A DNA stretch of 64,000 nucleotides, taken from Escherichia phage VerenaGrendelmeier_Bas101. A program made the translations under genes and the position numbers. Numbering within the stretch: position 1 is the first letter of the stretch; each line of letters begins with the position of its first letter. Below the pieces are notes generated by a model. The model saw nothing but the letters and a program-made list of their open reading frames with translations, did not search any database and was not told the DNA's origin. Positions 1 through 59,877 of the stretch are shown in pieces. The DNA lies in sequence record PQ850631.1; one strand, given 5' to 3'.

Positions 1-1
1 C

Positions 2-781
2 CCATCCAACGCTATTGCGATGGCCTATCGTCGTGAGATGAAAGGTCTTTGCTATGCGATGATTGACGACTATCAAGCAGGAATTGCTGAGTGGCTTGAA
101 AAGAAGCAGGTGAAAAAGTTCTTTGCGCAAGACTCTGCTGATTCAACTTTTCAGACCTTGATGAAGCGCCTTCAACTGAAATGGGCAAAAGCATTCGCCC
201 GTGTTGGGTCAAAGATTGCTGCAGATTTCATCAAGTCAGTTGAAAAGGGTGCGACTTCTGCTACATTCGCAAGTCTTAAATCTGCAGGAATAGAAGCGCC
301 AAAAGCCACATATAATAAATTCGTTGAGAACACTCTTAAAACAAGCGAGACGTTCAACACGACTCTAGTGACTAAGGTTGGCGAGGATATTCACAACAGG
401 GTGTACGAAGCGGTGATGCTTTCGCTGACTTCGCCAGACCCAGCGCAGCAAGGCACATCCGGCATTCAGGCGGCACTAAGGAATGTAAAACAATTCTCTG
501 CAAAACGCGTAGACCTTATCGCCAAAGACCAAACGAGCAAACTTTATTGCGTATTAAGTGATGAAAGGATGCGACAGAATGGCGTTGAGGAATTTGAGTG
601 GGCGCATTCAGGAGCAGGCAAAGAGCCGCGAATATCACATGAGCACGTCGACGGCATGAGATTCAAGCTTGATGACAAACGCTTATGGGAAGTAGGTGGA
701 GAACTTAAGTTCAAAAAGGGTGACATCGGTCCTCCTGGATGGGCAATACACTGCAAGTGCAGAAAAATACCAATTATCTGA
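2..781 (+). CDS. head morphogenesis protein, MuF/SPP1 gp7-like (5'-partial at window edge)
   Basis: Frame is open from the window start. C-terminal motif HSGAGKEPRISHEHVDGMRF...PPGWAIHCKCR is typical of the Mu F head morphogenesis domain. Confidence 0.65.
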   Translation, partial: PSNAIAMAYRREMKGLCYAMIDDYQAGIAEWLEKKQVKKFFAQDSADSTFQTLMKRLQLKWAKAFARVGSKIAADFIKSVEKGATSATFASLKSAGIEAPKATYNKFVENTLKTSETFNTTLVTKVGEDIHNRVYEAVMLSLTSPDPAQQGTSGIQAALRNVKQFSAKRVDLIAKDQTSKLYCVLSDERMRQNGVEEFEWAHSGAGKEPRISHEHVDGMRFKLDDKRLWEVGGELKFKKGDIGPPGWAIHCKCRKIPII

Positions 782-788
782 GGTCATT

Positions 789-1709
789 ATGACGATACCA
801 ATCAACACATTCCCTCTATCTGGACAAACTCCAGTCTTGCCTGCGGTGTATGCTAATGGCTTGGCAATTGTCTCAGAATTCACTTCTGATAAAAACTTGA
901 TTGTTCCACTGAGCCCGCCGCTTGCATCAGGGTATAACTCAGTAGGTCAATTCTTTATGATTGGCAATGATGGCGATTCGACCAGCAAGCCTAACCTGAC
1001 ATTGTCTGTGCCTAAGATGAACATCACAGACGTTCAAACTGGCTTGACTGCATCAACAATCACCATTGCTTTTGGTGAAGCAGTGATCATAGGTATGGAG
1101 TCTGGAGGGTCGAAAAACGCTGTCGCAGTCAAAGTTGTGAAAACCAGCGGCAACCAATACACGTTACCAGCGGCAACAGCTTCCGTTCTTGGTGGCGTCA
1201 AAATAGGCACCGGAATAAGCGTAGCAGGTGATGGTACAATCAGCGTCACCCAATACTCATTGCCGATTGCCTCAGCATCTACTTTAGGCGGCGTAAAGGT
1301 CGGTACAACTCTATCAATTGATGGGTCTGGTGTGCTTAATGCAGCAGCAAGTACCGTCCAGAATGCCACTAATAGCGTCAGCAATCCTCCAACAACTTTG
1401 GTCAATCTGGCAACCTTAAACCTTCCTGCAGGGAAATGGCTTGTAACAGCAAGTCAGTTGACTGTCGCGACAGCAGGCGTTCAAGCGAATACCGGAATTA
1501 CAGTCAAATTGTCAACAAGCAATTCAGATATTACGGATGATGCATTTGCCATGTCAGCTGGAATTCGGGCTGCAGGTCGCTTCGGCGGCAACATCCCAAC
1601 AAAAGTAATTACTCTTGCCGCGCCTGGTAATGTGTATTTAAACTATCAGTGCACCGACGCGTTGACATCTACCGTTTACGGACAGATCACCGCAATTAAG
1701 CTGAACTAA
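789..1709 (+). CDS. structural protein with tandem fiber-like repeats
   Basis: GAGG RBS 5 nt upstream of ATG. Internal ~32-aa repeats (PAATASVLGGVKIGTGISVAGDGTISV / PIASASTLGGVKVGTTLSIDGSGVL) resemble fiber-type repeats. Confidence 0.55.
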   Translation: MTIPINTFPLSGQTPVLPAVYANGLAIVSEFTSDKNLIVPLSPPLASGYNSVGQFFMIGNDGDSTSKPNLTLSVPKMNITDVQTGLTASTITIAFGEAVIIGMESGGSKNAVAVKVVKTSGNQYTLPAATASVLGGVKIGTGISVAGDGTISVTQYSLPIASASTLGGVKVGTTLSIDGSGVLNAAASTVQNATNSVSNPPTTLVNLATLNLPAGKWLVTASQLTVATAGVQANTGITVKLSTSNSDITDDAFAMSAGIRAAGRFGGNIPTKVITLAAPGNVYLNYQCTDALTSTVYGQITAIKLN

Positions 1710-1719
1710 AGAGGAAGTT

Positions 1720-1857
1720 ATGCAAAAGATTATTCAGTCACGTTATGTTAAAGTGCGAAATATTAATTGCAACTCTTTGCTTTCTTGGAAATGGGCTGTT
1801 TATGACTCGATGTTGATTGGCGTTTTAGTGGCAGGAGTGCTATTTAATATTCACTGA
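1720..1857 (+). CDS. small hydrophobic protein (45 aa)
   Basis: ATG preceded by GAGGAAG RBS; C-terminal hydrophobic stretch MLIGVLVAGVLF. Below the ORF-track size cut-off. Confidence 0.3.
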   Translation: MQKIIQSRYVKVRNINCNSLLSWKWAVYDSMLIGVLVAGVLFNIH

Positions 1858-1890
1858 ATTCATCGGCAAAGGATTGCCGCGAGTTTTATA

Positions 1891-2160
1891 CGTATAATGA
1901 CGTATCATCCGTATCAAGTAAGTTGTTGTTTTCAAAAGAATCTTACGGATGATACGCGTTGCCGCCGTACCATATAGGAATTCAAATAAATTAATTTAAA
2001 ATTATATATCTAATTTAATTTTATTTTTTTATAAACTCTTATATATGAAAAGTATCCGTATCATCCGTATCATCCGTAGCACACCAGTGATAGCGCGACT
2101 TATACACCGATACGGATAAAAATACGCCTCATTTTATCCGTATCATCCGTATCACACTAA
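1891..2160. repeat. iteron-like region: at least 8 copies of the 9-10-mer TCATCCGTA(TCA), both orientations, flanking an AT-rich tract (1981-2050)
   Basis: Copies at 1905-1916, 1943-1953 (rc), 2052-2078 (three tandem), 2109-2118 (rc), 2135-2154. Shares blocks with 54327-54615. Confidence 0.7.
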
Positions 2161-2211
2161 TAAAGGCGCGGCTATATCGGTTGTTATACATATTCAAACC
2201 ATAATTATTGT

Positions 2212-2240
2212 TTGCCTAAGTTTTTTTCATTAGATATAAT
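2212..2240 (+). promoter_or_regulatory. sigma70-like promoter TTGCCT-17-TATAAT for the structural operon
   Basis: -35 at 2212-2217, 17-bp spacer, -10 at 2235-2240, about 25 nt upstream of the 2264 start. Confidence 0.4.
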
Positions 2241-2263
2241 ACACAATACTTATTTGAGGGTGG

Positions 2264-3685
2264 ATGCGAATGCAAACGGCACGCGAAATTGACAAAAATG
2301 GATTCTTGACGATTATGGGTTGTCCAATTTCGTCATTTGGCATTTTTGATTATTCTGCTGGTCAAGTTGGTCTTGATGGTGATCCGAATCGCATCGTAAA
2401 AGTCTATCGCCCTGAGTCAGCGGTGAAAGACCCCGAAGCGATAGATTCATTCAAAAATATCCCTTTCATCGACAATCACGAAATGCTTTCTGGATTTGAA
2501 GGTGATGAGGATAACACGGCACCCGAAGAGTATGGTGTCGATGGCGTTCTAACTGGCAATGTTTATTATGACAAGCCATGGATGCGCGGCGACCTTAAAG
2601 TGTTCAGCCGTCGTCTTAAGAAGGCCATTGATTCTGGAAAGGTTGACTTGTCTTTGGGCTATGACTGTGAATTCATCATACAGTCTGGAGAGTTTGACGG
2701 GCAGCCGTATGAAGTGGTGCAGACAACTCTTCGCGGCAACCACATTGCTCTCGTGGACGTTGGTCGAGTACCAGGTGCACGGGTGCTGGATGGTCGTTGC
2801 TTTGACCATCTTTGTTTGACGACTGTAACACCATCCAACGAGGATTTAGACATGCCAAAACCGTTAAAAGGTAAAGCGCGTGATAATGCTGTTGAACAGC
2901 TGAAATCACTGATCCCTGCGCTCGAACAATTTCTGAATGAAGAGAGTGCTGAAGCTGCTCATCAGGACGAAGTTGAAGTGAAAGCAGAAGAGAAGGACTC
3001 AACCGAAAATCGTGAAGAAGTAATGGTTGATCCAGAAGTCAAGGCAGAAGCAGAAGAAACCCCAGAAGGTGAAGAGAAGTTTGAAGTTGAAACTGAATCT
3101 CACGCTGACGGCGAACTTCCGCAATTGATCAGCCAAATCGAAGCACTTATTGCAAAACTGAAAGGTGGCGCGGTAGGTGATGAAGAAGAAGTTGAAGCCG
3201 AAGTCAAAGACGAAGAAGAAGTTGAAGTCAAGGCTGAAGATGTATCACCTTGCGACAAAGCTGAAGATGTGGTTAGCGGCCTGCAAAACAGCAACGTAAA
3301 GGGGGCTTCGGTCGAAAAAGATGACAAACCGACAAAAGCGGCGAAAGCGTCGCCAGGTCCAGCAAAAGGGGAACACTCAATGGCATCTGATTCAGCAGTT
3401 GCTGCTTTCTACGCTGATTCTGCTCGTAAGAATAGCCTCTACCAGCGCCTGTCTAAAGTTGTTGGTGCCTTTGATCATGCAACTATGGACTCCAAGTCCG
3501 TAGCGAAATATGGCGCTAAAAAGTTAGGCTTGAAGTGCGTTGATGGTGCTGAGTTTGACGTGGTGGATAATTATCTGCGCGGCGTTGAGCACGGTCAAAA
3601 ACAGCGTGTAGTCGCAAAACAAAAGGCCGCTGCGGATTCTGCAGCAACTGACGAAGCATTTGAAGCTTGGTTGAAAGGGGAATAA
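2264..3685 (+). CDS. capsid maturation protease / scaffolding-like protein (DUF2213-like N-terminal domain, acidic repeat C-terminal half)
   Basis: N-terminal 200 aa resemble phage prohead protease-like domains. C-terminal half is highly acidic with tandem EEEVEAEVKDEEEVEVKAED repeats. An in-frame ATG at 2270 has better RBS spacing. Confidence 0.5.
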   Translation: MRMQTAREIDKNGFLTIMGCPISSFGIFDYSAGQVGLDGDPNRIVKVYRPESAVKDPEAIDSFKNIPFIDNHEMLSGFEGDEDNTAPEEYGVDGVLTGNVYYDKPWMRGDLKVFSRRLKKAIDSGKVDLSLGYDCEFIIQSGEFDGQPYEVVQTTLRGNHIALVDVGRVPGARVLDGRCFDHLCLTTVTPSNEDLDMPKPLKGKARDNAVEQLKSLIPALEQFLNEESAEAAHQDEVEVKAEEKDSTENREEVMVDPEVKAEAEETPEGEEKFEVETESHADGELPQLISQIEALIAKLKGGAVGDEEEVEAEVKDEEEVEVKAEDVSPCDKAEDVVSGLQNSNVKGASVEKDDKPTKAAKASPGPAKGEHSMASDSAVAAFYADSARKNSLYQRLSKVVGAFDHATMDSKSVAKYGAKKLGLKCVDGAEFDVVDNYLRGVEHGQKQRVVAKQKAAADSAATDEAFEAWLKGE

Positions 3686-48769: not shown

Positions 48770-48849
48770 AAAAAGGTGAGCTAAATGCTTGCCTTTTCTT
48801 TTATCAATACCTATACTCTTTTCATCAAGACGAACAATTGAGGTGAATT
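48770..48849 (+). promoter_or_regulatory. terminator-promoter cassette, copy A (hairpin overlapping -35, TTGCCT-17-TATACT)
   Basis: AAAAGGTGAGCTAAATGCTTGCCTTTT hairpin plus T-tract; -35 at 48789-48794, -10 at 48812-48817; homologous to 50021-50097. Confidence 0.5.
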
Positions 48850-50020: not shown

Positions 50021-50097
50021 TCAAAAAGGTGAGCTATATGCTTGCCTTTTTATTTGACTGTATTATACTTAGTTCATCAAGCAAAGGAGATTTGATT
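50021..50097 (+). promoter_or_regulatory. terminator-promoter cassette, copy B (TTGCCT-17-TATACT)
   Basis: AAAAGGTGAGCTATATGCTTGCCTTTTT; -35 at 50044-50049, -10 at 50067-50072; then AAGGAGA RBS of next gene. Confidence 0.5.
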
Positions 50098-52319: not shown

Positions 52320-52651
52320 AATTGAAATGGTACGTGGACCCTGAGCCGACAGGCTCATACAGGTCATTCCAACGTCGCGGCTGGCCGATTTGTTACAGCG
52401 GTAATCCCGATAAAGAAGACTGCGAGATGCTCGCCGCGATAGTAAGTCTTAATCATGACGGCTATGAAGGCCACTACGCGAGAGCAACCAACCTTCGGCT
52501 CAAGGTGCGCATCCATTTCAAGGTCGCAGGCGAGGACCGCACAGGACTCTCCAAGGAAGAGTTCAGCAGCATTGCCGAAGCAAAGGCATGGCTCAAGGCA
52601 TTCTATAAGAACAACCTAAATTTTATCCAACTAAGGACGCATCATGACTAA
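52316..52651 (+). CDS. hypothetical protein
   Basis: ATG start. Confidence 0.4.
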   Translation: MKLKWYVDPEPTGSYRSFQRRGWPICYSGNPDKEDCEMLAAIVSLNHDGYEGHYARATNLRLKVRIHFKVAGEDRTGLSKEEFSSIAEAKAWLKAFYKNNLNFIQLRTHHD

Positions 52652-53135
52652 CAAAACGCAACGCATCAATTTTGAAGGTAAAGAATACGAAATAGACGCT
52701 CGTGCAAGATTCGTCGCGCGTGACTCTAACGGAACCATCTGGGCGTACGAGGAAAAACCTGTATGGGAAGAGCGGCGCGGCCAGTGGTTGTATGAAACAT
52801 GCGGTTCAGTTTGGTGCGAGCGCATCGACCAAGTGAAGACGTTTGAAAAGAACAGGCCATCATCACGTGATTCATTGAAGGAAGTCGAATCAATCAAAAT
52901 CAAAGACCCAGCGCCGTCGACCGATAAACAATACGCAGTCGGGCAACGTGACATCGAGCAACTCGACGAGGGCGGCTATTATACGCGCCACATCCATGCC
53001 ATGACTCAAGAAGGACTTTACAGCAAGTCGGACATCGCCGCTGAACTGGCCCATCGTGACTTACAAATCGACCTTCTCAAGATAGAAGTGCAGAACTTAC
53101 GAAACACCCTGTTAAATACTTGGAGCTTAAAATGA
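52644..53135 (+). CDS. hypothetical protein (shares a domain with 48850-49167)
   Basis: See 48850-49167. Confidence 0.45.
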   Translation: MTNKTQRINFEGKEYEIDARARFVARDSNGTIWAYEEKPVWEERRGQWLYETCGSVWCERIDQVKTFEKNRPSSRDSLKEVESIKIKDPAPSTDKQYAVGQRDIEQLDEGGYYTRHIHAMTQEGLYSKSDIAAELAHRDLQIDLLKIEVQNLRNTLLNTWSLK

Positions 53136-53551
53136 TACAGCGTTACGATGTTGATTATTGCACGCAGCACGCTTGCACTTGTGAAGTTGTAAAGGATGAT
53201 GAAGGCGGCTATGTTGAATATGAGGACTATGAATCACTACTCAAGCTTAATGAGTCGCTAACAAAAGAGATTGAGCAATACCGCGAGCGCATCAAAGTCG
53301 CTGAAGATATTATCAAGCTTTTTAGCGAGGCTGTTGAGAAATACAAGGAGCGCAACGTACCGATTAAGGAGGAAGCGTGGACCGTGTGGCGTGGTGGCGA
53401 TAATCCGGTGCCTGGTGAGATTGTTGAATACAAGCTGCGCAATGGAGGTGATAAAGTTCTGTCGAGACTTTCTGATCATCTTCACTGGGGTCATATAGGC
53501 GCGTTAAAGGGCAGCGACATCATTGCTTATCGGGTCGTTAAGGAGGGGTGA
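53132..53551 (+). CDS. hypothetical protein (C-terminal domain shared with 51469-51978)
   Basis: ATGA overlap; Cys-rich N-terminus CTQHACTC. Confidence 0.45.
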   Translation: MIQRYDVDYCTQHACTCEVVKDDEGGYVEYEDYESLLKLNESLTKEIEQYRERIKVAEDIIKLFSEAVEKYKERNVPIKEEAWTVWRGGDNPVPGEIVEYKLRNGGDKVLSRLSDHLHWGHIGALKGSDIIAYRVVKEG

Positions 53552-54000
53552 TGGGCAAACGGCTTATCGCCGCTGGTTGGGCCATACCGAAGTGGGGCCA
53601 TCGTGCGCATTACTTTGACGAAGGAGAAGGGCAAAGCCTTTGTGGTCGCGCAACATATTTCGGTGATGAGCGCGTCAGCGGCGATTATATCGATTCGCTT
53701 TTAGGTAAAGGTGATTGCAAGAAGTGCCAAAATATATTAAGAGATATTCTTACGCAAAAAGGATTGCTTGAGCTTGATGAATCGGAAGAAGTAATTGATC
53801 TTAAGCTGGAAGCCAATCACCTTATTAATATGTTCAAGAATTATTACTTAACTAATATGCGCTCAAAGATGCGTAAGGAAGTAATAGAAGAGGTACTCAC
53901 TTACAATCCTTTAAGGATGAATAAAACTAAATTGAAGAAGTTTAATATAATGATAAGGAAGGAATTTAAAAGGCTTGGAGTGAAGAATTTTATATTTTAA
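53551..54000 (+). CDS. hypothetical protein
   Basis: AGGAGG RBS; CxxC...CxxC-like cysteines; last gene before terminator. Confidence 0.4.
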   Translation: MGKRLIAAGWAIPKWGHRAHYFDEGEGQSLCGRATYFGDERVSGDYIDSLLGKGDCKKCQNILRDILTQKGLLELDESEEVIDLKLEANHLINMFKNYYLTNMRSKMRKEVIEEVLTYNPLRMNKTKLKKFNIMIRKEFKRLGVKNFIF

Positions 54001-54016
54001 TAGTGATTAATGTTAA

Positions 54017-54038
54017 GAGGGCCGATTGGCCCTTTTTG
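54017..54038 (+). terminator. rho-independent terminator ending the early block
   Basis: GGGCCGATTGGCCC followed by TTTTT. Confidence 0.65.
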
Positions 54039-54039
54039 T

Positions 54040-54290
54040 TTGCCTGTGGTATGTGAGGATTTATTATCGGATAAAGCGATTGATTTGTGCAAATCTATTA
54101 GAGGGTCATGGGTAGTGAGGATTGTGACGTGAATTTTGTGTCTTGAATATGTGTGCGAATCTGGAAGATTATTGTACTGTGGTGCTGTGGGATTGTAGAG
54201 GGAATCACTAGGAATTGGAGCGTGTACCGTGGTGTGTGGTCCTGTAGGCTGCGCCGTCTATGGGATTGTCGCTTGAAATTAAAAAGGAGA
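54040..54290. repeat. non-coding GT-rich tract with GGGATTGT / GAGGATTGT repeats
   Basis: Strong G+T skew on plus strand; no ORF; repeats near 54118, 54192, 54262. Confidence 0.5.
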
Positions 54291-54326
54291 TATAGTTAGC
54301 TGGCTAACCTTACGCATAGAATTTAA

Positions 54327-54615
54327 GCGTATAATGACGTAAGATTTGGACCTATCCGTAGTTCACTCCACACACTTCTATGGTGCGCCGCGACTGGGTT
54401 CAGTGGTACATCTTACGGATGATACGGATGATACGCGTCGCCGCTATACTTTATACAACTTTGAAAAAAACAATTAACTCCATTTTGAATTAATTTAAAT
54501 TAATTTTTTTCTACATCCTCATACTTATACTAAACTTATATTTATACGTATTATCCGTAAGATATAAGTAAAAACAAAGACTTGCGGCAATACGGATGAT
54601 ACGTCACGATACGCT
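54327..54615. repeat. second iteron-like region homologous to 1891-2160
   Basis: Shared blocks GCGTATAATGACGTA, ATCTTACGGATGATACG...GCCGC, AT-rich AATTAATTTAAA tract, TATCCGTA copies. Confidence 0.65.
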
Positions 54616-54778
54616 TCAACCAGCCAGCAGCGGCTAAGTCATTGATTTGCATAACAAGCGACGAAAGGGATGGATTTCTTTTATACGTATCAAACAGTAC
54701 ACCACGCACCACGGTCCGTTATCCATCCAGCACTATGATTTGTGTACGTTTATAGCCATAATGAACATCAATCTGCAC

Positions 54779-54807
54779 TTGAATATAATGTCCATCCATT
54801 GTATAAT
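54779..54807 (+). promoter_or_regulatory. sigma70-like promoter TTGAAT-17-TATAAT
   Basis: -35 at 54779-54784, -10 at 54802-54807, upstream of the TerS-like ORF. Confidence 0.35.
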
Positions 54808-54817
54808 TCACACTATT

Positions 54818-56298
54818 AATTTGCACTATGGGATTTTGCACTATGAGTCAAGATTATGTAGCGATGCCTGAAGACTTTGAAGACCCGCGATTCGCAGAGC
54901 ACAATCAGGCTTTATTCGATGAGTTCATTGACCTTGTTATTCAGGGCCATGACATGCGCGCAGCTTTTGCACTAGTATTTGGAATGGAAGTTGCAACGGA
55001 TAACTACACTGGCCAGCGAATCCTTTGCACGCAACGCAATCCATACTACAAGATGCGCTTCAAAAAGCGTATGGAAGAGATGCCACTCAAGGATTTGTGG
55101 AGCGTAAAAGGTGCAATTCACAATTTGGTCAAGCTTGTGCGTGATCCAGAAGTCGCGGCGTCAGCCAAGCTTAATGCTATTCGTGAACTGAATATCATCT
55201 ATGGCATCACGATGATTGATGAAAACGGCAATAGTAAAATGGGCCGTTCTATGGACGATTTCTACAAGGATTTTGGAGAGGCGGCCAAAGAAGGCGAGCA
55301 ATTCTCCCGCCACTAGCCAATTTGCACTATAAAACGGCCCTAGAACACATTGTCTCCACTTCTAGGGCCATCGGTAATACGACGGGGAAGGTTGCAACCG
55401 TAAACGCGTTAGAAAGTGTATTATTATAAGTCATCTTTTAGTCACCTTACGTAACAATTTACGACCTTCAACCGTCCAATCGAACGACTCCACCAGCAGA
55501 TTCGCACTATAACCTAAGATGATGCGCCCTTTCTCGTTATCGACCCGCCAACAAGTCTCGAATAGCATTCGATTTGCACTATTAACTATCGCCGCAACGC
55601 GCGTTGGGTAAACGCAATTTGCACTATGGTCGTAAAGGGATAAGGTGCGACCACTTCCGATGGACAATGTAGCGATGAGAATAAGCGTATTCATAAGCCA
55701 CCAATTTGCACTATGAAAAGCGACCCCGAAGGGCCGCCATTCGATTAGATAATCTGGAATGTGTAGGACTTGTTGCCGAACTCAAAGTTCAAGCGTCCAG
55801 CTTCTTTAAGCTTCATGCGGAAGCGAATGTGCTTACTATCCGGTAAGCCCAGCGCGGCGAACGCCACGCGGACCGATTTGAACTCGCCTACACCCTCGAC
55901 CATAACGCCGTTACGCGTGAGACGCTTTTGCGCCACTTCCTTGTTATCCCAACTTTTTGCAATACCTTCGCTATTCGAACGGCGATGGGAAGGAGTTCCA
56001 TTTTGCACTACGCAATTTGCACTATCGTTTAGGCCGCTTTTAACGAAGGCTTCATACTCTTCGTCGGTCATCGCGTCGAGTTCTTCCTGGGTCGGCTCGG
56101 CCTTTTTAACGACCGCACGCGCCTTATGCGTTTTTACATCGCTGGACACTTCCTCGCGCGGCTTCGCGTCGGGAATGGGCGATTCGTTGGACGGCTCATC
56201 GAGCGCGTTTAAGGACTCGATTAACGCGATTACGCGAGTCTCGGCGGTACGGCGGTCCGCAAATTTCTTAATCGGCTTCGAACCGGAATTTGCATTAT
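54818..56298 (+). repeat. strand-specific array of about 10 copies of the 12-mer AATTTGCACTAT (and one-mismatch variants)
   Basis: Copies at 54818, 54833, 55319, 55499, 55571, 55616, 55703, 55999, 56014, 56287, all in the same orientation, irregular spacing, crossing coding and non-coding DNA. Confidence 0.75.
54828..55316 (+). CDS. terminase small subunit-like DNA-binding protein (orphan; start ambiguous 54828/54843)
   Basis: HTH-like GHDMRAAFALVFG followed by LKDLWSVKGAIHNLVKLVRDPEVAASAKLNAIRELNIIYGIT; no large terminase gene adjacent. Confidence 0.35.
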   Translation: MGFCTMSQDYVAMPEDFEDPRFAEHNQALFDEFIDLVIQGHDMRAAFALVFGMEVATDNYTGQRILCTQRNPYYKMRFKKRMEEMPLKDLWSVKGAIHNLVKLVRDPEVAASAKLNAIRELNIIYGITMIDENGNSKMGRSMDDFYKDFGEAAKEGEQFSRH

Positions 56299-56371
56299 AA
56301 AATGCAACGAGGTCGGCGGTCTTAGTTGCGATAACGTCGCCGCTAGTCGAGAAACGATTTAAGCTAACCAT
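55745..56371 (-). CDS. hypothetical protein (208 aa)
   Basis: Long ORF with codon usage distinct from the structural genes (AAG, CGC, TCG-rich); contains embedded 12-mer copies. Confidence 0.4.
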   Translation of the reverse strand: MVSLNRFSTSGDVIATKTADLVAFYNANSGSKPIKKFADRRTAETRVIALIESLNALDEPSNESPIPDAKPREEVSSDVKTHKARAVVKKAEPTQEELDAMTDEEYEAFVKSGLNDSANCVVQNGTPSHRRSNSEGIAKSWDNKEVAQKRLTRNGVMVEGVGEFKSVRVAFAALGLPDSKHIRFRMKLKEAGRLNFEFGNKSYTFQII

Positions 56372-56451
56372 AATGAACTCCTATTTGTTAGGGCGCTAGG
56401 CGCGAAAGAATTTTATTAAAGCGCCGCGCGCGACGCTCTAAAAATCCTCTC

Positions 56452-56766
56452 TTACTCTTCGTCGTCTTCGATTAATTCGAGGGCGAAGGCGTAAGCTTTG
56501 CTATCGTAATTAACTAAAACGGCGAGTTCGAACTCGTTAATAAACGCCGTTTTACCGCATAAATTTAATTCCGCATCGACTTCGAAGAATCCGTTTTCGT
56601 CGCGCTCTAAGCGAGAAGCAGCGAGTTGCTCGATTACCGTCGCGTCGTTAATTTCTTCGCCTAAGCGAACGCCGGAGAATTTCGCGAGAATTTCGCCGTA
56701 AGTAAGCGTAACGCCCTGGACTTCGGCGGTTGCGTTTTCGAGGGTAAAGCGGGTAACGATAGCCAT
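56452..56766 (-). CDS. small acidic protein (104 aa)
   Basis: Strongly acidic, ends ...LIEDDEE. Confidence 0.45.
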   Translation of the reverse strand: MAIVTRFTLENATAEVQGVTLTYGEILAKFSGVRLGEEINDATVIEQLAASRLERDENGFFEVDAELNLCGKTAFINEFELAVLVNYDSKAYAFALELIEDDEE

Positions 56767-56906
56767 AATAAACTCCTAGTTGGGAGAGGCGTTAACGACC
56801 TATTCGTTAACTCATCCCGTCCCGATATGAGTACATTATAATATAGTGTAGAAAAAAGTAAAGCACTTTTTCGATAAAAATGCGATAAATTATTTTATCT
56901 TTTTTC

Positions 56907-56934
56907 TTTACTTCTTCGTACACTCGCGTATACT
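56907..56934 (+). promoter_or_regulatory. sigma70-like promoter TTTACT-16-TATACT with conserved GTACACT spacer and TTGTTTATATCGAGA leader
   Basis: Near-identical architecture to 57305-57333. Confidence 0.45.
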
Positions 56935-56988
56935 TGTTTATATCGAGACGGGCGATGGCCCTTCCTTCTACTAGCATCGGGAGTTTTA

Positions 56989-57293
56989 TTATGACCACTT
57001 TAATCTCTTCTATCCTTACTTACGACGAAGACCGTTTAACCGTTCGCTCTCTTATCGCCGCCGTTAACGCGGAACTAGAATCCACCATTATTAAGGTCCG
57101 CGCGGTCGCTTTCGTCGGCCTTTCCTTCGACGATATTAAGTACGCCGAACGTAGCGCCATCCGCTTCGCGAAGACCGACGACGAAGCCGTTACCCTTATC
57201 GAGACGGTTACGCCGCGCGGCGAAGCGTTAATTATCGTCGAGTATATCGACGTAGAAGGCGATAAGGCTTATAAATATTTTATTGCAGAATAA
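56989..57293 (+). CDS. small acidic protein (101 aa)
   Basis: ATG at 56989; acidic. Confidence 0.45.
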
Positions 57294-57304
57294 CGAAAAA
57301 GTGC

Positions 57305-57333
57305 TTTACTTCTTCGTACACTAAGACTATAAT
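57305..57333 (+). promoter_or_regulatory. sigma70-like promoter TTTACT-17-TATAAT, paralog of 56907-56934
   Basis: Shares CTTTACTTCTTCGTACACT and the GTTTTATATCGAGAG leader. Confidence 0.45.
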
Positions 57334-57400
57334 GTTTTATATCGAGAGGGGATGAGGTAGCGAATAGGTCGCTACCCGCCCGACCAACTAGGAGATTATT

Positions 57401-57691
57401 ATGATTACTTTAGCCGCTATCCGTTCCGCTCGCGTCGAGACTTCCGAAAACTCTAACGTATTTGGCGAAACCTTAGAGAGCGTTTATCTCTCTAACGTAG
57501 ACGCAACTATCGAACCTATTTATGAGCCGATCAACTTCCTCGACCTTTACAAGTATCGCGACGAGGACATCGTATCATCCCGCGTAACGATTAACGGCTT
57601 CGTCTATACGATTACCGAAATCGGCGGCGAATATCTCGCTGTACCGCAACTCGGCGGCGAAGTAACTTATTTTAAAATTGTCTCCTTATAA
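57401..57691 (+). CDS. small acidic protein (96 aa)
   Basis: GGAG RBS, ATG at 57401. Confidence 0.45.
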   Translation: MITLAAIRSARVETSENSNVFGETLESVYLSNVDATIEPIYEPINFLDLYKYRDEDIVSSRVTINGFVYTITEIGGEYLAVPQLGGEVTYFKIVSL

Positions 57692-57710
57692 TATCCTTCC
57701 GTTACTAATA

Positions 57711-57736
57711 GGCCGCGCTTAGTCGCGGCTTTTCTT
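57711..57736 (+). terminator. rho-independent terminator
   Basis: GCCGCG...CGCGGC stem followed by TTTTCTT. Confidence 0.6.
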
Positions 57737-57854
57737 CGTCCCTATCTCGATGCGCTTCTCCGCGAAAACTCCTTTATCCTTCCCTTCGTCGTCGCATAAT
57801 CTTCGTCGAGATGCGCCTTAGTTCGCATAACAGGTATTACGTTAAATGGAGAAC

Positions 57855-57931
57855 ATCGCGTAAGTCCTTGTTTTATATAGACACCTATATCGGACCGTTA
57901 GGGCGGGTCGCGTAAGTCGTTGTTTTATAAA
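57855..57931 (+). repeat. direct repeat pair TCGCGTAAGTC(C/G)TTGTTTTATA
   Basis: Copies at 57855-57879 and 57907-57931; shares TTGTTTTATA with the leaders of the two promoters upstream. Confidence 0.55.
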
Positions 57932-58055
57932 GGCGCAAAACTTTCCCTTCGTTCCGAACTAAAACGAGGAATATGCCGACCCTTCGCCCGAAAATAGTAC
58001 GCATGCGAAATCACATGCATCTCGAATAATCCCCACCGATATTATCCTACACGCA

Positions 58056-58118
58056 ATCATTCGCTTTCGAATCATTATGCTTCATATTATTATGCGTCGA
58101 ATCATTCGCTTTCGAATT
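58056..58118 (+). repeat. direct repeat pair AATCATTCGCTTTCGAAT
   Basis: Copies at 58056-58073 and 58101-58118, each with a TTCGAA palindrome. Confidence 0.55.
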
Positions 58119-58205
58119 GTAACGCTGGAAACTGTAACGGCGATTGATTATTGCGTTCGTGTGGTTTTTAGGGCATGGGTCTTTTGGTGCGTTTTGGTGC
58201 TTGAT

Positions 58206-58318
58206 GGAATTTGCGGTACACTAATCAAAATACGACACATTTGGTCCACTAACTTTTCAAAGAAAAAGTCCTAGACAGTACCGTACTATTTTGTACCCAC
58301 AGGAATTTGCAGTACACT
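58206..58318 (+). repeat. direct repeat pair GGAATTTGC(G/A)GTACACT
   Basis: Copies at 58206-58222 and 58302-58318; combines the AATTTGC core with the GTACACT promoter-spacer motif. Confidence 0.5.
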
Positions 58319-59099: not shown

Positions 59100-59495
59100 T
59101 CAATATTTTAATAAGAAAGCACCCAACCAACTTTCCTCGACCTCGCGGCCAGTAGCCACACGGTCGGTCTTGGCTATGGGTCTGGATTCGCCGCAGGGCA
59201 ACCCGTCCTGTAGATGTGTACTATTGCCAATTCTCACCATGACCTTTCCATCAGGGTCGATATAAGCGCGACAACCCATGATTTCGAGTCGTTGTAGACA
59301 CTGGCGAATCGTTTTCAGCTTCTCACCGGACCGGATAGAGCGCGGTCGCGACCGCTGACCGTTTTTATTCACTGTACGCTTGACGACCGGAATCTCATTG
59401 GTGCGTTGCGGCTTGGGTCGGTAATAAGCCTCTTCGCCAGGAGTCGCACCTGGCGTTAATTCGCGCTTGAGAGCCTTTTCAATATCGATGATCAT
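59100..59495 (-). CDS. hypothetical basic protein (131 aa)
   Basis: Arg/Lys-rich ORF. Confidence 0.4.
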   Translation of the reverse strand: MIIDIEKALKRELTPGATPGEEAYYRPKPQRTNEIPVVKRTVNKNGQRSRPRSIRSGEKLKTIRQCLQRLEIMGCRAYIDPDGKVMVRIGNSTHLQDGLPCGESRPIAKTDRVATGREVEESWLGAFLLKY

Positions 59496-59589
59496 AATTC
59501 ATGCCGCAGCAGCGTGGATGATTGCGTAAACGATTCCAAACAGGGCGACAATACAAACCGTGCCCCAAAATGCAAAGCGTCGCGCCTCT

Positions 59590-59877
59590 TTATCCATTAG
59601 AGCCTTCTCCGCTGTTAATGTTGTCCAAAATCAAGGTTGGAATTTCATCTTGAGTCCTGACTTTGTAATGCGAAGGCATTTTGCTTTCTAACAATGCCTG
59701 TTCAGCTTCTCCCTTTGTCTCAAAGAGCGGGATGCACCAATCAACTGCATTGCCGTGTTCATCACCCTTGACGGCCTTCAAAAAGACAAGGCGCTTGTCC
59801 GCAGGGTCGATGCCGCAAATTAAGTATTTTGGAAGAGATTTTGCTTTCTGAGCTTTATCAATATCTTCAAATTTCAT
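59590..59877 (-). CDS. hypothetical protein (95 aa)
   Basis: Start at ATG with GAGGTG RBS. Confidence 0.4.
   Translation of the reverse strand: MKFEDIDKAQKAKSLPKYLICGIDPADKRLVFLKAVKGDEHGNAVDWCIPLFETKGEAEQALLESKMPSHYKVRTQDEIPTLILDNINSGEGSNG

What the first reader, a model, noticed from the sequence alone, without database searches (positions are those of the whole stretch)
54040..54290. Non-coding GT-rich tract with GGGATTGT repeats after the early-block terminator
About 250 bp with strong G+T skew on the plus strand, no ORF, and recurring (G)GGATTGT and TGTG units. It lies between the early terminator and the second iteron region, near the TerS-like gene. Candidates: packaging-site structure, a structured non-coding RNA, or a recombination hotspot.
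Basis: seen in the sequence. Interest (0 to 1): 0.4.

Follow-up and report, generated by a model that had tools for sequence, protein, structure and literature searches.

The report
G+T-rich flank of phage packaging cut
The G+T-rich stretch is real, does not encode a protein or a folded RNA, and is one strand-polar flank of the site where this phage's packaging enzyme cuts its DNA; the same layout recurs, without sequence similarity, in distant PB1-like phages whose packaging signal has never been defined.

Summary
The window is a Wifcevirus, an E. coli myovirus related to Pseudomonas phage PB1. The tract at 54040-54290 is real: at 69% G+T it is the most G+T-rich 250 nt in the 64 kb (z about 5.4), with only 11% C.

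It follows the terminator of the last unique-region gene. It lies 190-440 bp upstream of the left boundary of the 3.7-kb direct terminal repeat (54481/54482, placed by homology to WFH and Mansfield). The small terminase gene terS starts at 54843.

- There is no Rfam hit, no excess RNA folding, no exact Chi site and no credible gene.
- Other Wifcevirus lineages carry unalignable sequence here that is still G+T-rich and GGATT-enriched.
- In 11 of 17 terS-linked lineages, including PB1, the strongest G+T peak in about 6 kb lies 710-960 nt upstream of terS.
- An AT-rich centre follows. In Pbunavirus it carries the published fixed end and putative pac site. A mirror C+A-rich arm comes next.
- GCCGC pentamers point inward from both sides.

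Best reading (confidence 0.42): the tract is the outer arm of a dyad-symmetric packaging-initiation region. The role of the skew itself is unproven. Rivals are GT-rich 3' tails for recombination or end protection, a Rho loading site, and an origin flank.

The parts
53548..54000 (+). Last gene of the unique region (150 aa, unknown function, phrog_2358)
   Evidence: ORF list. PHROG hit E=1.4e-64, with no Pfam hit. Annotated as hypothetical in all relatives.
54019..54037 (+). Intrinsic terminator closing the rightward gene block (GGGCCGATTGGCCC followed by a T-rich tail)
   Evidence: Read directly. Annotated as a terminator at the homologous place in WFH. The simple scan tool did not list it.
54040..54067 (+). 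Possible sigma-70 promoter TTGCCT-16-TATTAT (weak, found in this lineage only)
   Evidence: 9 of 12 consensus match. In nine close relatives the TTG and TATTAT are invariant, while the 16-nt spacer is hypervariable but has no indels. No equivalent in the other Wifcevirus lineages.
54040..54290 (+). The finding: G+T-rich, C-poor non-coding tract, interpreted as the outer left arm of the packaging-initiation region
   Evidence: Composition extreme of the window. GGATT enriched. It is the most variable part of the non-coding region among close relatives, with 21% polymorphic columns and G<->T the commonest change. The composition is kept in unalignable versions.
54119..54125 (+). GGATTGT copy 1 (GAGGATTGTGACG)
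54189..54196 (+). GGGATTGT copy 2 (CTGTGGGATTGT)
   Evidence: family D2.
54262..54269 (+). GGGATTGT copy 3. It is preceded by the GC-rich element GCTGCGCCGTC, a degenerate version of the family-wide GCCGCG...CTGG(G)ATT element
54226..54240 (+). ACCGTGGTGTGTGGT, which forms an inverted repeat with 54701-54715
   Evidence: 14 of 15 positions complementary (pair I7). It is the best local match of the tract to the far side of the cut (P=0.017 against shuffles). CCGTGGTG recurs in the other lineages.
54291..54481 (.). Nearly invariant core left of the cut. It holds GCCGC at 54387 and 54440 and the iterons TTACGGATGATACGGATGATACG at 54413-54435
   Evidence: Only 4.7% polymorphic columns over 54291-54546. 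Homology among all Wifcevirus lineages resumes at 54410-54420. Motif positions.
54481..54482 (.). Left boundary of the direct terminal repeat, taken as the terminase cut (AATTAACTCC|ATTTTGAATTAATTT) inside an AT-rich run
   Evidence: Nucleotide 1 of WFH and nucleotide 1 of Mansfield (opened at the PhageTerm boundary) both align to 54482, and Mansfield's last base aligns to 54481. This is inferred by homology, not measured for this isolate.
54482..58184 (.). Direct terminal repeat (3703 bp; one copy in the window)
   Evidence: The end of the WFH record and nucleotide 3673 of Mansfield (annotated repeat_region 1..3673) both align to 58184.
54544..54634 (.). Core right of the cut: inverted iteron 54544-54566, iteron 54590-54603, and GCGGC at 54584 and 54630
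   Evidence: (I1, I9, I12, D1).
54699..54735 (+). Short C+A-rich element (ACACCACGCACCACGGTCCGTTATCCATCCAGCAC). It is the weak counterpart of the strong C+A-rich arm seen in PB1-like relatives
   Evidence: Read. Inverted repeats I4, I6 and I7. The corresponding arm in PB1 and JG024 has 45-49% C and 8-10% G.
54762..54807 (+). Two overlapping sigma-70-like promoters for terS
   Evidence: 10 of 12 matches each. Conserved in the other lineages.
54843..55316 (+). terS (small terminase subunit, 157 aa)
   Evidence: A profile of four family members hits PDB 7UXE 'Small terminase' with E=6.4e-74. Annotated as terminase small subunit in Mansfield.

Best explanation
The tract is the outer, left-hand arm of the phage's packaging-initiation region. 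This is the roughly 800-bp non-coding stretch between the last gene of the unique region and terS.

Layout of the region:
- G+T-rich arm (54040-54290).
- Invariant core with GCCGC pentamers and TACGGAT-type iterons.
- AT-rich centre, where terminase cuts to make the left genome end (54481/54482).
- Iterons and GCGGC pentamers in the opposite orientation.
- A short C+A-rich element.
- terS promoters and terS.

Shown:
- The position of the cut, by homology to two independently determined relatives.
- The dyad-symmetric layout, and its recurrence around the published fixed end and putative pac site of Pbunavirus.
- Conservation of the arm's composition, strand polarity and distance from terS without conservation of sequence.

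Inferred:
- Ring-shaped TerS (a homologue of the E217 decamer), with or without TerL, assembles on oriented short motifs on both sides of the easily melted centre. This resembles pacL and pacR flanking pacC in phage SPP1.
- The arms contribute low-specificity, oriented contacts (GGATT, GGTTG and GTGG-type units) and flexible TG/CA steps. These help wrap or loop the DNA and give the complex its polarity, so that TerL cuts at one defined place.

Why the arm must be G+T-rich on this particular strand is not explained by this model alone.
For: Context.
- The window is a Wifcevirus.
- The DTR boundaries at 54482 and 58184 agree between WFH and Mansfield.
- terS identity rests on PDB 7UXE.

Constraint pattern.
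- The core 54291-54546 is almost invariant, while the tract is variable.
- All Wifcevirus lineages regain homology at 54410-54420, about 70 bp before the cut.
- The replaced spacers are nevertheless G+T-rich: 0.65-0.73 over 200 nt with 7-9% C.
- GGATT is enriched in three of the four spacer types.

Family level.
- PB1 and JG024 share no nucleotide homology with the window, and their TerS is 41% identical.
- Even so, they show terminator, then a G+T arm (GC skew up to +0.71, 6-9% C, with TGGATT units), then an AT-rich centre, then a C+A arm (45-49% C), then terS.
- In 11 of 17 non-redundant lineages the locus-wide G+T maximum lies 710-960 nt upstream of terS (binomial P about 2e-10).
- In 9 of 17 the locus-wide minimum lies 186-310 nt upstream.

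The centre is a real end.
- Nucleotide 1 of Ab27 was set from reads with a fixed termination (PMC4482731).
- It equals JG024 position 59,376, the published putative pac site supported by a pac fragment (PMC10913387).

Dyad symmetry.
- Left of the centre: GCCGC 33 vs GCGGC 10.
- Right of the centre: GCCGC 1 vs GCGGC 63.
- This orientation runs against what the local base composition favours.

Not regional drift. Four-fold degenerate sites of the neighbouring genes have GC skew of -0.06 to -0.17.
Against: - There is no experiment on this phage. The boundary is transferred by homology.
- TerS of the window phage (spacer class A) is 100% identical to that of WFC (class C), although their arms are unalignable. 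TerS therefore cannot be reading the arm's specific sequence.
- E217 TerS showed no appreciable DNA binding in vitro (review PMC9611059).
- The arm is the least conserved part of the region.
- In Pantoea phage Kyle, Xanthomonas phage XcP1 and some metagenomic relatives the arm is weak or absent.
- In the window the C+A counterpart is short, and GGATT units also occur in the same orientation right of the cut (about 54674 and 54831, read). The motif itself is therefore not mirrored.
- The count of GCCGC/GCGGC in the window (4 in 850 bp) is what the genome-wide density predicts.
- DNA flexibility alone would not require a fixed strand polarity.
Confidence: 0.42

Rival explanations
1. End-related single-strand signal. 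After terminase cuts at the centre, 5'-to-3' resection would leave 3' tails that are G+T-rich on both sides: the top strand on the left and the bottom strand on the right. GT-rich single strands are the preferred substrates of RecA-family recombinases, and this is also the polarity of Chi and of telomeric overhangs. The arms would then promote strand invasion (recombination-dependent replication, rescue of the unpackaged concatemer end) or slow exonucleases.
For: - Mirror polarity of the two arms about the cut in PB1, JG024 and many relatives.
- Composition rather than sequence is conserved across phages of very different hosts, as expected for a host-independent property.
- G<->T is the commonest substitution class in the tract, so G and T behave as interchangeable.
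- A 75-nt G+T-rich segment (0.79) also spans the right DTR boundary on the strand that ends 3' there.
- The RecA preference for GT-rich DNA is from my own knowledge (Tracy and Kowalczykowski, 1996-97).
Against: - There is no exact Chi (GCTGGTGG) in the tract, although that would be the simplest way to tame RecBCD in E. coli.
- In the mature Wifcevirus genome the tract lies about 3.9 kb from the right end, not next to an end.
- Nothing shows that resection occurs or that resected ends reach progeny.
- The C+A arm is weak in the window.
Confidence: 0.16
2. Rho loading (rut) sites. RNA transcribed outward from the centre would be C-rich, G-poor and unstructured on both sides. The arms would then be back-to-back Rho-dependent terminators that stop transcripts that have crossed the packaging site from invading the neighbouring transcription units.
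For: - Minus-sense RNA of the tract is 33% C and 11% G, and folds to only -20 kcal/mol over 263 nt.
- Its best 80-nt C/G ratio is in the top 0.06% of all windows on both strands.
- A hairpin (54037-54019) follows in that direction.
- A composition-only signal fits the sequence turnover.
- In PB1 the rightward C-rich arm (45-49% C, 8-10% G) sits upstream of terS.
Against: - No convincing leftward promoter lies between 54290 and 54900. The only minus-strand sites are 9 of 12 matches, no better than in shuffles.
- The leftward genes of the DTR end at an annotated terminator in WFH (about window 55335-55370 by coordinate offset), beyond terS from the tract.
- The upstream block already has an intrinsic terminator.
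- The GCCGC polarity points to a DNA-level dyad complex rather than an RNA signal.
Confidence: 0.1
3. Flank of a replication origin. An AT-rich unwinding element is flanked by inverted arrays of initiator sites (GCCGC/GCGGC and iterons). The skewed arms would serve helicase loading or priming, or R-loop formation from the promoter at 54040-54067.
For: - The inverted short-motif arrays around an AT-rich centre resemble known origins.
- In Pbunavirus-like relatives a 529-579-aa primase/helicase gene ends just before the arm.
- A possible promoter reads into a G-rich non-template strand.
Against: - The energy of an RNA:DNA hybrid relative to the duplex is not extreme in the tract (z about -1.4; many coding regions are stronger).
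- The promoter is absent from the other lineages.
- The skew switch (+ to -) is that of a terminus, not an origin.
- Direct evidence at the centre is for DNA ends, and it adjoins terS.
- In Wifcevirus the large minus-strand ORFs that relatives annotate as replication genes lie at about 24-41 kb, far from the tract.
Confidence: 0.1
4. No function. The tract would be a mutational footprint (for example deamination of a strand that is often single-stranded next to the cut) in a dispensable, mosaic spacer.
For: - It is the most variable part of the region and is swapped between lineages.
- The mirror polarity matches what 3'-tail exposure would produce.
Against: - Deamination gives transitions, but transversions outnumber transitions in the tract (41 vs 31), with G<->T the commonest class.
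- G is enriched to 33%, not only C depleted.
- Neighbouring four-fold sites show no such bias.
- The position is fixed to within a few hundred nucleotides across lineages whose TerS is only 31-43% identical.
- None of the 17 Wifcevirus loci examined lacks a G+T-rich stretch here.
Confidence: 0.08
5. A transcript with its own function: a small RNA or a long terS leader made from the promoter at 54040-54067 (for example a GGA-rich protein sponge), or a small protein from ORF 54153-54299.
For: - The promoter-like site has a conserved TTG and -10 hexamer and a variable spacer of fixed length.
- There are 10 GGA motifs (P=0.04).
- The ORF is open in nine genomes and is annotated in phage kaset.
Against: - No Rfam hit and no excess folding.
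- No terminator at the 3' side.
- The promoter and the ORF are absent from the other lineages.
- The ORF has no ribosome-binding site (direct reading), and about 10 of its 48 positions change amino acid among near-identical genomes.
Confidence: 0.05

Closest known systems
Tripartite pac site of Bacillus phage SPP1 (pacL - pacC - pacR next to and within gene 1, terS)
   Same: - Non-coding or 5'-terS region in which terminase contacts flank the cleavage site on both sides.
- Adjacent to terS.
- Multiple short boxes rather than one long site (summarised in PMC9611059; the details of the boxes are from my own knowledge).
   Different: - Here the region is about 800 bp rather than about 270 bp.
- The cut lies 361 bp upstream of terS.
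- The flanks are strand-polar compositional arms (G+T vs C+A), with GCCGC pentamers in inverted orientation.
- Binding by TerS is not shown.
- In Wifcevirus the cut creates a fixed DTR boundary rather than starting a headful series.
Lambda cos (cosQ - cosN - cosB - Nu1)
   Same: The order of elements is the same: an upstream element, the nick or cut site, a binding region, and then the small terminase gene. There is partial two-fold symmetry about the cut (own knowledge).
   Different: - No cohesive ends.
- No R-site or IHF architecture shown.
- The upstream element here is 250 bp of biased composition rather than a short specific cosQ.
T7/T3 concatemer junction with short-repeat arrays SRR and SRL flanking the terminal repeat
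   Same: Non-coding short-repeat DNA lies in the unique sequence next to a direct terminal repeat, and its function is still unclear (own knowledge, Dunn and Studier 1983).
   Different: - There are only 3-4 GGATT(G) units at 62-73-bp spacing, not about 12 closely spaced heptamers.
- The tract is separated from the repeat by 190 bp of invariant core.
- No comparable array lies beyond the right DTR boundary.
- The same arm also occurs in Pbunavirus, for which headful packaging without a DTR is reported.
Polar G-rich DNA signals read relative to an end or target (Chi for RecBCD, KOPS for FtsK, telomeric TG-rich 3' strands)
   Same: The G/T-rich strand points the same way relative to the break on both sides. 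The signal is degenerate and compositional in nature.
   Different: No Chi octamer and no KOPS octamer (direct reading). No evidence that any translocase or end-binding protein reads the arms.
E217 (Pbunavirus) small terminase, PDB 7UXE
   Same: The neighbouring gene product is a homologue (profile E=6.4e-74). The G+T arm / AT centre / C+A arm layout lies directly upstream of that gene in the Pbunavirus genomes examined, PB1 and JG024.
   Different: That work reported no appreciable DNA binding, and the review suggested T4-like packaging without a pac site. The layout found here offers a specific candidate substrate.

Membership tests
Terminase packaging-initiation (pac-type) region | Lies next to or within the small terminase gene | tested here: met
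   terS is at 54843-55316. The tract ends 553 bp upstream of terS, and the cut is 361 bp upstream.
Terminase packaging-initiation (pac-type) region | Contains the site where terminase makes the defined initiating cut or fixed genome end | tested here: inconclusive
   The region does. 54481/54482 equals nucleotide 1 of WFH and of Mansfield (PhageTerm), and the homologous centre in Pbunavirus is the Ab27 fixed end and the JG024 pac site. The tract itself lies 190-440 bp away, and no reads exist for this isolate.
Terminase packaging-initiation (pac-type) region | Bound by TerS or terminase and required in cis for packaging | not testable with these tools
   There is only indirect evidence: the oriented GCCGC arrays and GGATT enrichment. 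E217 TerS did not bind DNA in vitro.
T7-type short-repeat arrays flanking a terminal repeat (SRL/SRR) | Arrays of about ten or more closely spaced copies of one heptamer immediately adjacent to the repeat on both sides | tested here: not met
   There are only 3 GGATTGT and 4 GGATT copies, 62-73 bp apart, 190 bp from the DTR. Tandem-repeat-like families are absent. Nothing similar lies right of 58184.
Rho-dependent terminator (rut site) | At least about 80 nt of C-rich, G-poor, unstructured RNA | tested here: met
   This holds for minus-sense RNA only: 33% C, 11% G, MFE -20 kcal/mol over 263 nt. The C/G ratio is in the top 0.06%.
Rho-dependent terminator (rut site) | Transcribed in that direction, with Rho-dependent 3' ends | tested here: inconclusive
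   No convincing leftward promoter was found by consensus scan. No transcript data are available.
Chi recombination hotspot (E. coli) | The exact octamer GCTGGTGG in the active orientation | tested here: not met
   The window has four Chi sites and none is in the tract. The nearest is 55490-55497 on the minus strand.
Structured non-coding RNA | Match to a curated family, or folding or covariation above background | tested here: not met
   The only Rfam evalue-mode hit in 52500-56000 is a chance-level mcrA match outside the tract. Folding z-scores are +0.86 and +0.97. Covariation cannot be assessed because divergent homologues do not align.
Iteron-type replication origin | AT-rich unwinding element with repeated initiator sites and demonstrated initiation | not testable with these tools
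   The neighbouring core (54400-54640) has iterons and an AT-rich run. The tract has neither. R-loop energetics are unremarkable.
Protein-coding gene | An ORF with a start signal, conserved under purifying selection | tested here: not met
   ORF 54010-54132 is frameshifted in two relatives. ORF 54153-54299 lacks an SD sequence (direct reading), about 10 of its 48 positions change amino acid, and it is lineage-restricted.

The most novel reading that the evidence does not exclude
The G+T arm and its mirror C+A arm would be a composition-encoded, host-independent end signal. On both sides of the terminase-made break the 3'-ending strand is G+T-rich, so that resected tails load a recombinase or resist exonucleases, in a telomere-like or Chi-like way. 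This would couple the packaging cut to recombination-dependent replication, or to rescue of the unpackaged concatemer end. The inward-pointing GCCGC pentamers would mark the terminase assembly site. It would be a new kind of cis-acting element at phage genome termini, shared by DTR and headful members of the PB1-like family.
Probability: 0.13. Interest if true: 0.8.

Novelty: new variant of a known kind. Interest (0 to 1): 0.55.

Why it matters
[quoted passage not shown] Wifceviruses are being rebuilt synthetically (PMC11074155). Their packaging signal is nevertheless undefined:
- The solved E217 TerS decamer showed no DNA binding in vitro, and the review suggested T4-like packaging without a pac site.
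- Reports on the genome ends disagree (DTR, fixed end without DTR, or permuted).

The layout found here gives a concrete substrate to test: G+T arm, inward-pointing GCCGC pentamers, AT-rich cut site, mirror C+A arm, terS. It links the Wifcevirus DTR boundary to the Pbunavirus pac site as the same ancestral cut. It also shows a cis-element conserved as strand-polar composition rather than as sequence, which homology searches miss. For genome engineering, it marks about 800 bp that should not be split or used as an insertion site.

Tried and rejected
- Structured RNA: Rfam in evalue mode gave nothing in the tract. RNA folding of both strands was no better than shuffles.
- Giant hairpin or palindrome across the cut: local alignment of the left arm against the reverse complement of the right arm was tested against dinucleotide shuffles. 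In the window only the iteron pair (P=0.003) and one 15-mer (P=0.017) stand out. In PB1 nothing does (P=0.15-0.17).
- R-loop-prone sequence: nearest-neighbour RNA:DNA minus DNA:DNA energy gave z about -1.4, with many coding regions stronger.
- Regional mutational bias: four-fold degenerate sites of flanking genes have slightly negative GC skew.
- Chi: no exact site in the tract.
- TerS co-variation with arm type: TerS is identical between a class A phage and a class C phage.
- Promoter after the terminator as a general feature: present only in this lineage.
- Leftward promoter feeding a rut site: not found (and direct reading).
- Homology search for the tract: only nine close Wifceviruses carry it.
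- Pfam and PHROGs gave no function for terS or the upstream genes. Only the PDB profile search identified TerS.
- Host-factor consensus sites (DnaA, IHF, CRP/FNR, Tus, KOPS, matS) were compared by eye with the sequence. Only partial matches were seen and none was pursued. One was a near-IHF site on the minus strand at about 54073-54086.
- Literature searches found no description of this element.
- PS44 was fetched as a possible DTR-containing Pbunavirus, but its record end did not help.
Full report
**What the window is**

A 1.8-kb query around the finding matches 28 phage records at 91-95% identity. All are Wifcevirus, E. coli and Shigella myoviruses of 66-72 kb related to Pseudomonas phage PB1. 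The tract itself (54000-54420) is found in only 14 records, and only in part in two of them, Bas98 and Bas99. The best match is 95.4% identical, and there is nothing outside the genus.

**Checking the observation**

- The tract 54040-54290 has 83 G, 83 T, 58 A and 27 C. The 250-nt window starting at 54026 reaches 68.8% G+T.
- That is the maximum of the 64-kb window (mean 50.0%, sd 3.5%). GC skew in 200-nt windows reaches +0.55.
- GGATTGT occurs three times here, out of seven copies in the window.
- GGATT, GGATTG and TGTG exceed dinucleotide-preserving shuffles (P=0.001, 0.001 and 0.01).
- An intrinsic terminator (54019-54037, annotated in WFH) precedes the tract, and the ATACGGATGATACG repeats follow it.
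- The two small ORFs are not credible genes. One is frameshifted in two relatives. The other has no ribosome-binding site, about 10 of its 48 positions change amino acid among genomes that are 94% identical, and it is missing from sister lineages.

The exact 8-mer GGGATTGT is specific to this isolate, and the conserved unit is (G)GGATT(G).

**Where the tract sits**

[quoted passage not shown] Its record annotates repeat_region 1..3673.
- The WFH and WFC contigs include 'a terminal repeat of about 3.7 kb' (PMC6563267).
- Nucleotide 1 of both WFH and Mansfield aligns to window 54482. The WFH record end and Mansfield nucleotide 3673 both align to 58184.
- The DTR in the window is therefore 54482-58184, by homology.
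- The 157-aa gene at 54843-55316 is annotated as small terminase in Mansfield. A four-member family profile hits PDB 7UXE (small terminase, 10 chains) at E=6.4e-74. Pfam and PHROGs give no function.

The tract thus lies between the last unique-region gene and the right-hand DTR copy, 190-440 bp before the cut and 553-803 bp before terS.

**Conservation within the genus**

Seventeen loci fall into three types.
- Class A is the window plus eight phages that align throughout.
- Class B (Bas98, Bas99) diverges between 54063 and 54419.
- Class C (WFC, F13, Ro157lw, CWP003, EC150, TH35, RCIP0319) has a different last gene and a different spacer.

In all of them homology resumes at 54410-54420, about 70 bp before the cut.

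Within class A the constraint varies sharply along the region.

| Segment | Polymorphic columns | Transitions | Transversions | G<->T changes |
|---|---|---|---|---|
| Core 54291-54546 | 4.7% | 8 | 4 | 0 |
| Upstream gene 53560-54000 | 12.7% | 42 | 20 | 9 |
| Tract 54040-54290 | 21.1% | 31 | 41 | 20 |

The tract is thus the least constrained part in sequence. Even so, the unalignable class B and C spacers are also G+T-rich (0.65-0.70 over 200 nt, 7-9% C). GGATT is enriched in A, C and RCIP0319 but not in B. Short elements recur in every class: CCGTGGTG, and GCGCCGCGCC followed by TGG(G)ATT. TerS is 100% identical between the window phage (class A) and WFC (class C), so TerS does not co-vary with the arm sequence.

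**Beyond the genus**

PB1 and JG024 have 55% GC, a TerS 41% identical to the window's, and no nucleotide similarity to it. They show the same layout between the primase/helicase gene and terS:
- a terminator;
- about 250 bp of G+T-rich DNA (0.65-0.71, GC skew up to +0.71, 6-9% C) with TGGATT units;
- a GC-rich element;
- an AT-rich centre;
- a mirror C+A-rich stretch (45-49% C, 8-10% G);
- terS.

A search of IMG/VR with a TerS alignment returned 38 loci.
- In 11 of 17 non-redundant lineages the locus-wide G+T maximum over about 6.4 kb lies 710-960 nt upstream of terS.
- In 9 of 17 the locus-wide minimum lies 186-310 nt upstream.
- An AT-rich dip lies between the two.
- Binomial P is about 2e-10 and 6e-11. 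Lineages are related, but the DNA is not alignable.
- In most GC-rich relatives a 529-579-aa ORF ends just before the arm.
- The arm is weak or absent in Pantoea phage Kyle, Xanthomonas phage XcP1 and a few metagenomic lineages.

**The centre is a real end in Pbunavirus too**

[quoted passage not shown] Ab27 nucleotide 1 aligns exactly to JG024 59,376, at the left edge of the AT-rich centre between the two arms. The same ancestral cut site therefore serves as a pac site in one genus and as a DTR boundary in another.

**A second, sequence-level symmetry**

- Across 14 arms the most over-represented 5-mers are GCCGC, CCGCG and CGCCG. GGATT also ranks among the most over-represented.
- Within 450 nt left of the centre, GCCGC outnumbers its complement GCGGC by 33 to 10.
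- Right of the centre the count is 1 to 63, over 18 lineages.
- This is the opposite of what the local base composition would favour. The consensus is T(T/G)GCCGC(G/A).
- The window follows the rule (GCCGC at 54387 and 54440; GCGGC at 54584 and 54630). However, four pentamers in 850 bp is only the genome-wide density.
- The iterons are also inverted about the cut (pairs I1, I9, I12).

**What the tract is not**

- It is not a structured RNA.
- It is not one arm of a long hairpin across the cut.
- It is not unusually R-loop-prone by nearest-neighbour energies.
- It is not a Chi site.
- It is not the product of a regional mutational bias, because four-fold sites of neighbouring genes have GC skew of -0.06 to -0.17.

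**Most likely mechanism**

The dyad symmetry of pentamers, iterons and composition about a mapped terminase cut next to terS points to a DNA-level nucleoprotein complex. This is a packaging-initiation region of the SPP1 pacL-pacC-pacR kind. The G+T tract would be its outer left arm, contributing oriented low-specificity contacts and flexible TG/CA steps.

- Shown: position, layout and conservation.
- Inferred: TerS or TerL binding and wrapping.

I put this at 0.42. The consistent strand polarity is not explained by wrapping alone. It keeps alive three readings that depend on strand identity:
- GT-rich 3' tails on both sides of the break, for recombinase loading or end protection (0.16);
- Rho loading sites for outward transcripts (0.10, weakened by the lack of a leftward promoter);
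- an origin flank (0.10).

A purely mutational footprint (0.08) is disfavoured by the substitution spectrum and the fixed position. A functional transcript or peptide (0.05) is disfavoured by lineage restriction and by the lack of folding or coding signal.

**Novelty**

Packaging-initiation regions are a known kind. I found no description of mirror G+T and C+A arms with inward-pointing GCCGC pentamers in the papers searched. The review that covers the E217 TerS work treats the family as possibly lacking a pac site. I therefore rate it a new variant of a known kind, with interest 0.55. The tract in isolation is a modest feature. It leads to a testable definition of the packaging signal of a therapeutically used phage family, and to an unusual cis-element conserved only as composition.

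Noticed in passing
window 54380-54640, and loci L024, L031, L036, L037, L042, L043, L052, L055, L057 upstream of terS: GCCGC pentamers (consensus T(T/G)GCCGC(G/A)) lie left of the AT-rich cut site, and their reverse complement GCGGC lies right of it. The counts are 33:10 on the left and 1:63 on the right over 18 lineages, against the local composition. This is a candidate for the specific terminase recognition element.
   Followed up: partly
window 54407-54429 / 54544-54566, and 54590-54603: TACGGATGATACG-type iterons are arranged as inverted repeats about the DTR boundary (23-nt arms, 87% complementary; P=0.003 against shuffles). Pantoea phage Kyle has a different iteron (AATATCCGAA) in the same arrangement.
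   Followed up: partly
window 58141-58215: A 75-nt G+T-rich segment (0.79) spans the right DTR boundary at 58184/58185. It contains GCGATTGATT, a 10-mer also present in the invariant block of the tract (54076-54085). The Pbunavirus fixed end also begins CGATTGC.
   Followed up: no
window 55490-55497 (minus strand): An exact Chi octamer lies about 1 kb inside the left genome end, in the orientation that RecBCD entering at that end would recognise. There are four Chi sites in the window, against 1.2 expected.
   Followed up: no
window 54046-54061 and 54105-54117: Two hypervariable patches among genomes that are 94% identical differ mostly by G<->T changes, with no indels in the first. The first patch is exactly the spacer of the promoter-like site TTGCCT-16-TATTAT.
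   Followed up: partly
window 54082-54095: A 14-bp palindrome, GATTTGTGCAAATC, lies just downstream of the -10-like TATTAT and looks like an operator. It is perfect only in this isolate; relatives have GATTTGTGTAAATC.
   Followed up: no
window 54410-54420: All three Wifcevirus spacer types share the same right-hand recombination breakpoint, at the start of the iteron TCTTACGGATGATACGG. Everything to its left, including the last gene in class C, is mosaic.
   Followed up: partly
window 56748-56895 and 57273-57418: An inverted duplication of about 148 bp (76% identity) inside the DTR coincides with divergent TTTACT-N16/17-TATAAT promoter-like sites at 56862 (minus strand) and 57305 (plus strand).
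   Followed up: no
window 58207-58222 and 58303-58318: GGAATTTGCGGTACAC and GGAATTTGCAGTACAC are repeated about 96 bp apart, just outside the right DTR boundary.
   Followed up: no
JG024 record 59205-59786 (L064 1206-1787), kaset L005 1995-2261, and Bas98/Bas99 small CDSs: Automatic annotations place 'hypothetical protein' genes across the arms and across the pac/DTR cut site in several relatives. Given the composition, and the frameshifts seen in the window's lineage, these are probably spurious.
   Followed up: partly
window 48789-48817, 50042-50069, 54040-54067: Three plus-strand promoter-like sites share the -35 hexamer TTGCCT. At least two of them sit directly on or after a terminator, which suggests a recurring terminator-promoter module in the small-gene block.
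   Followed up: no
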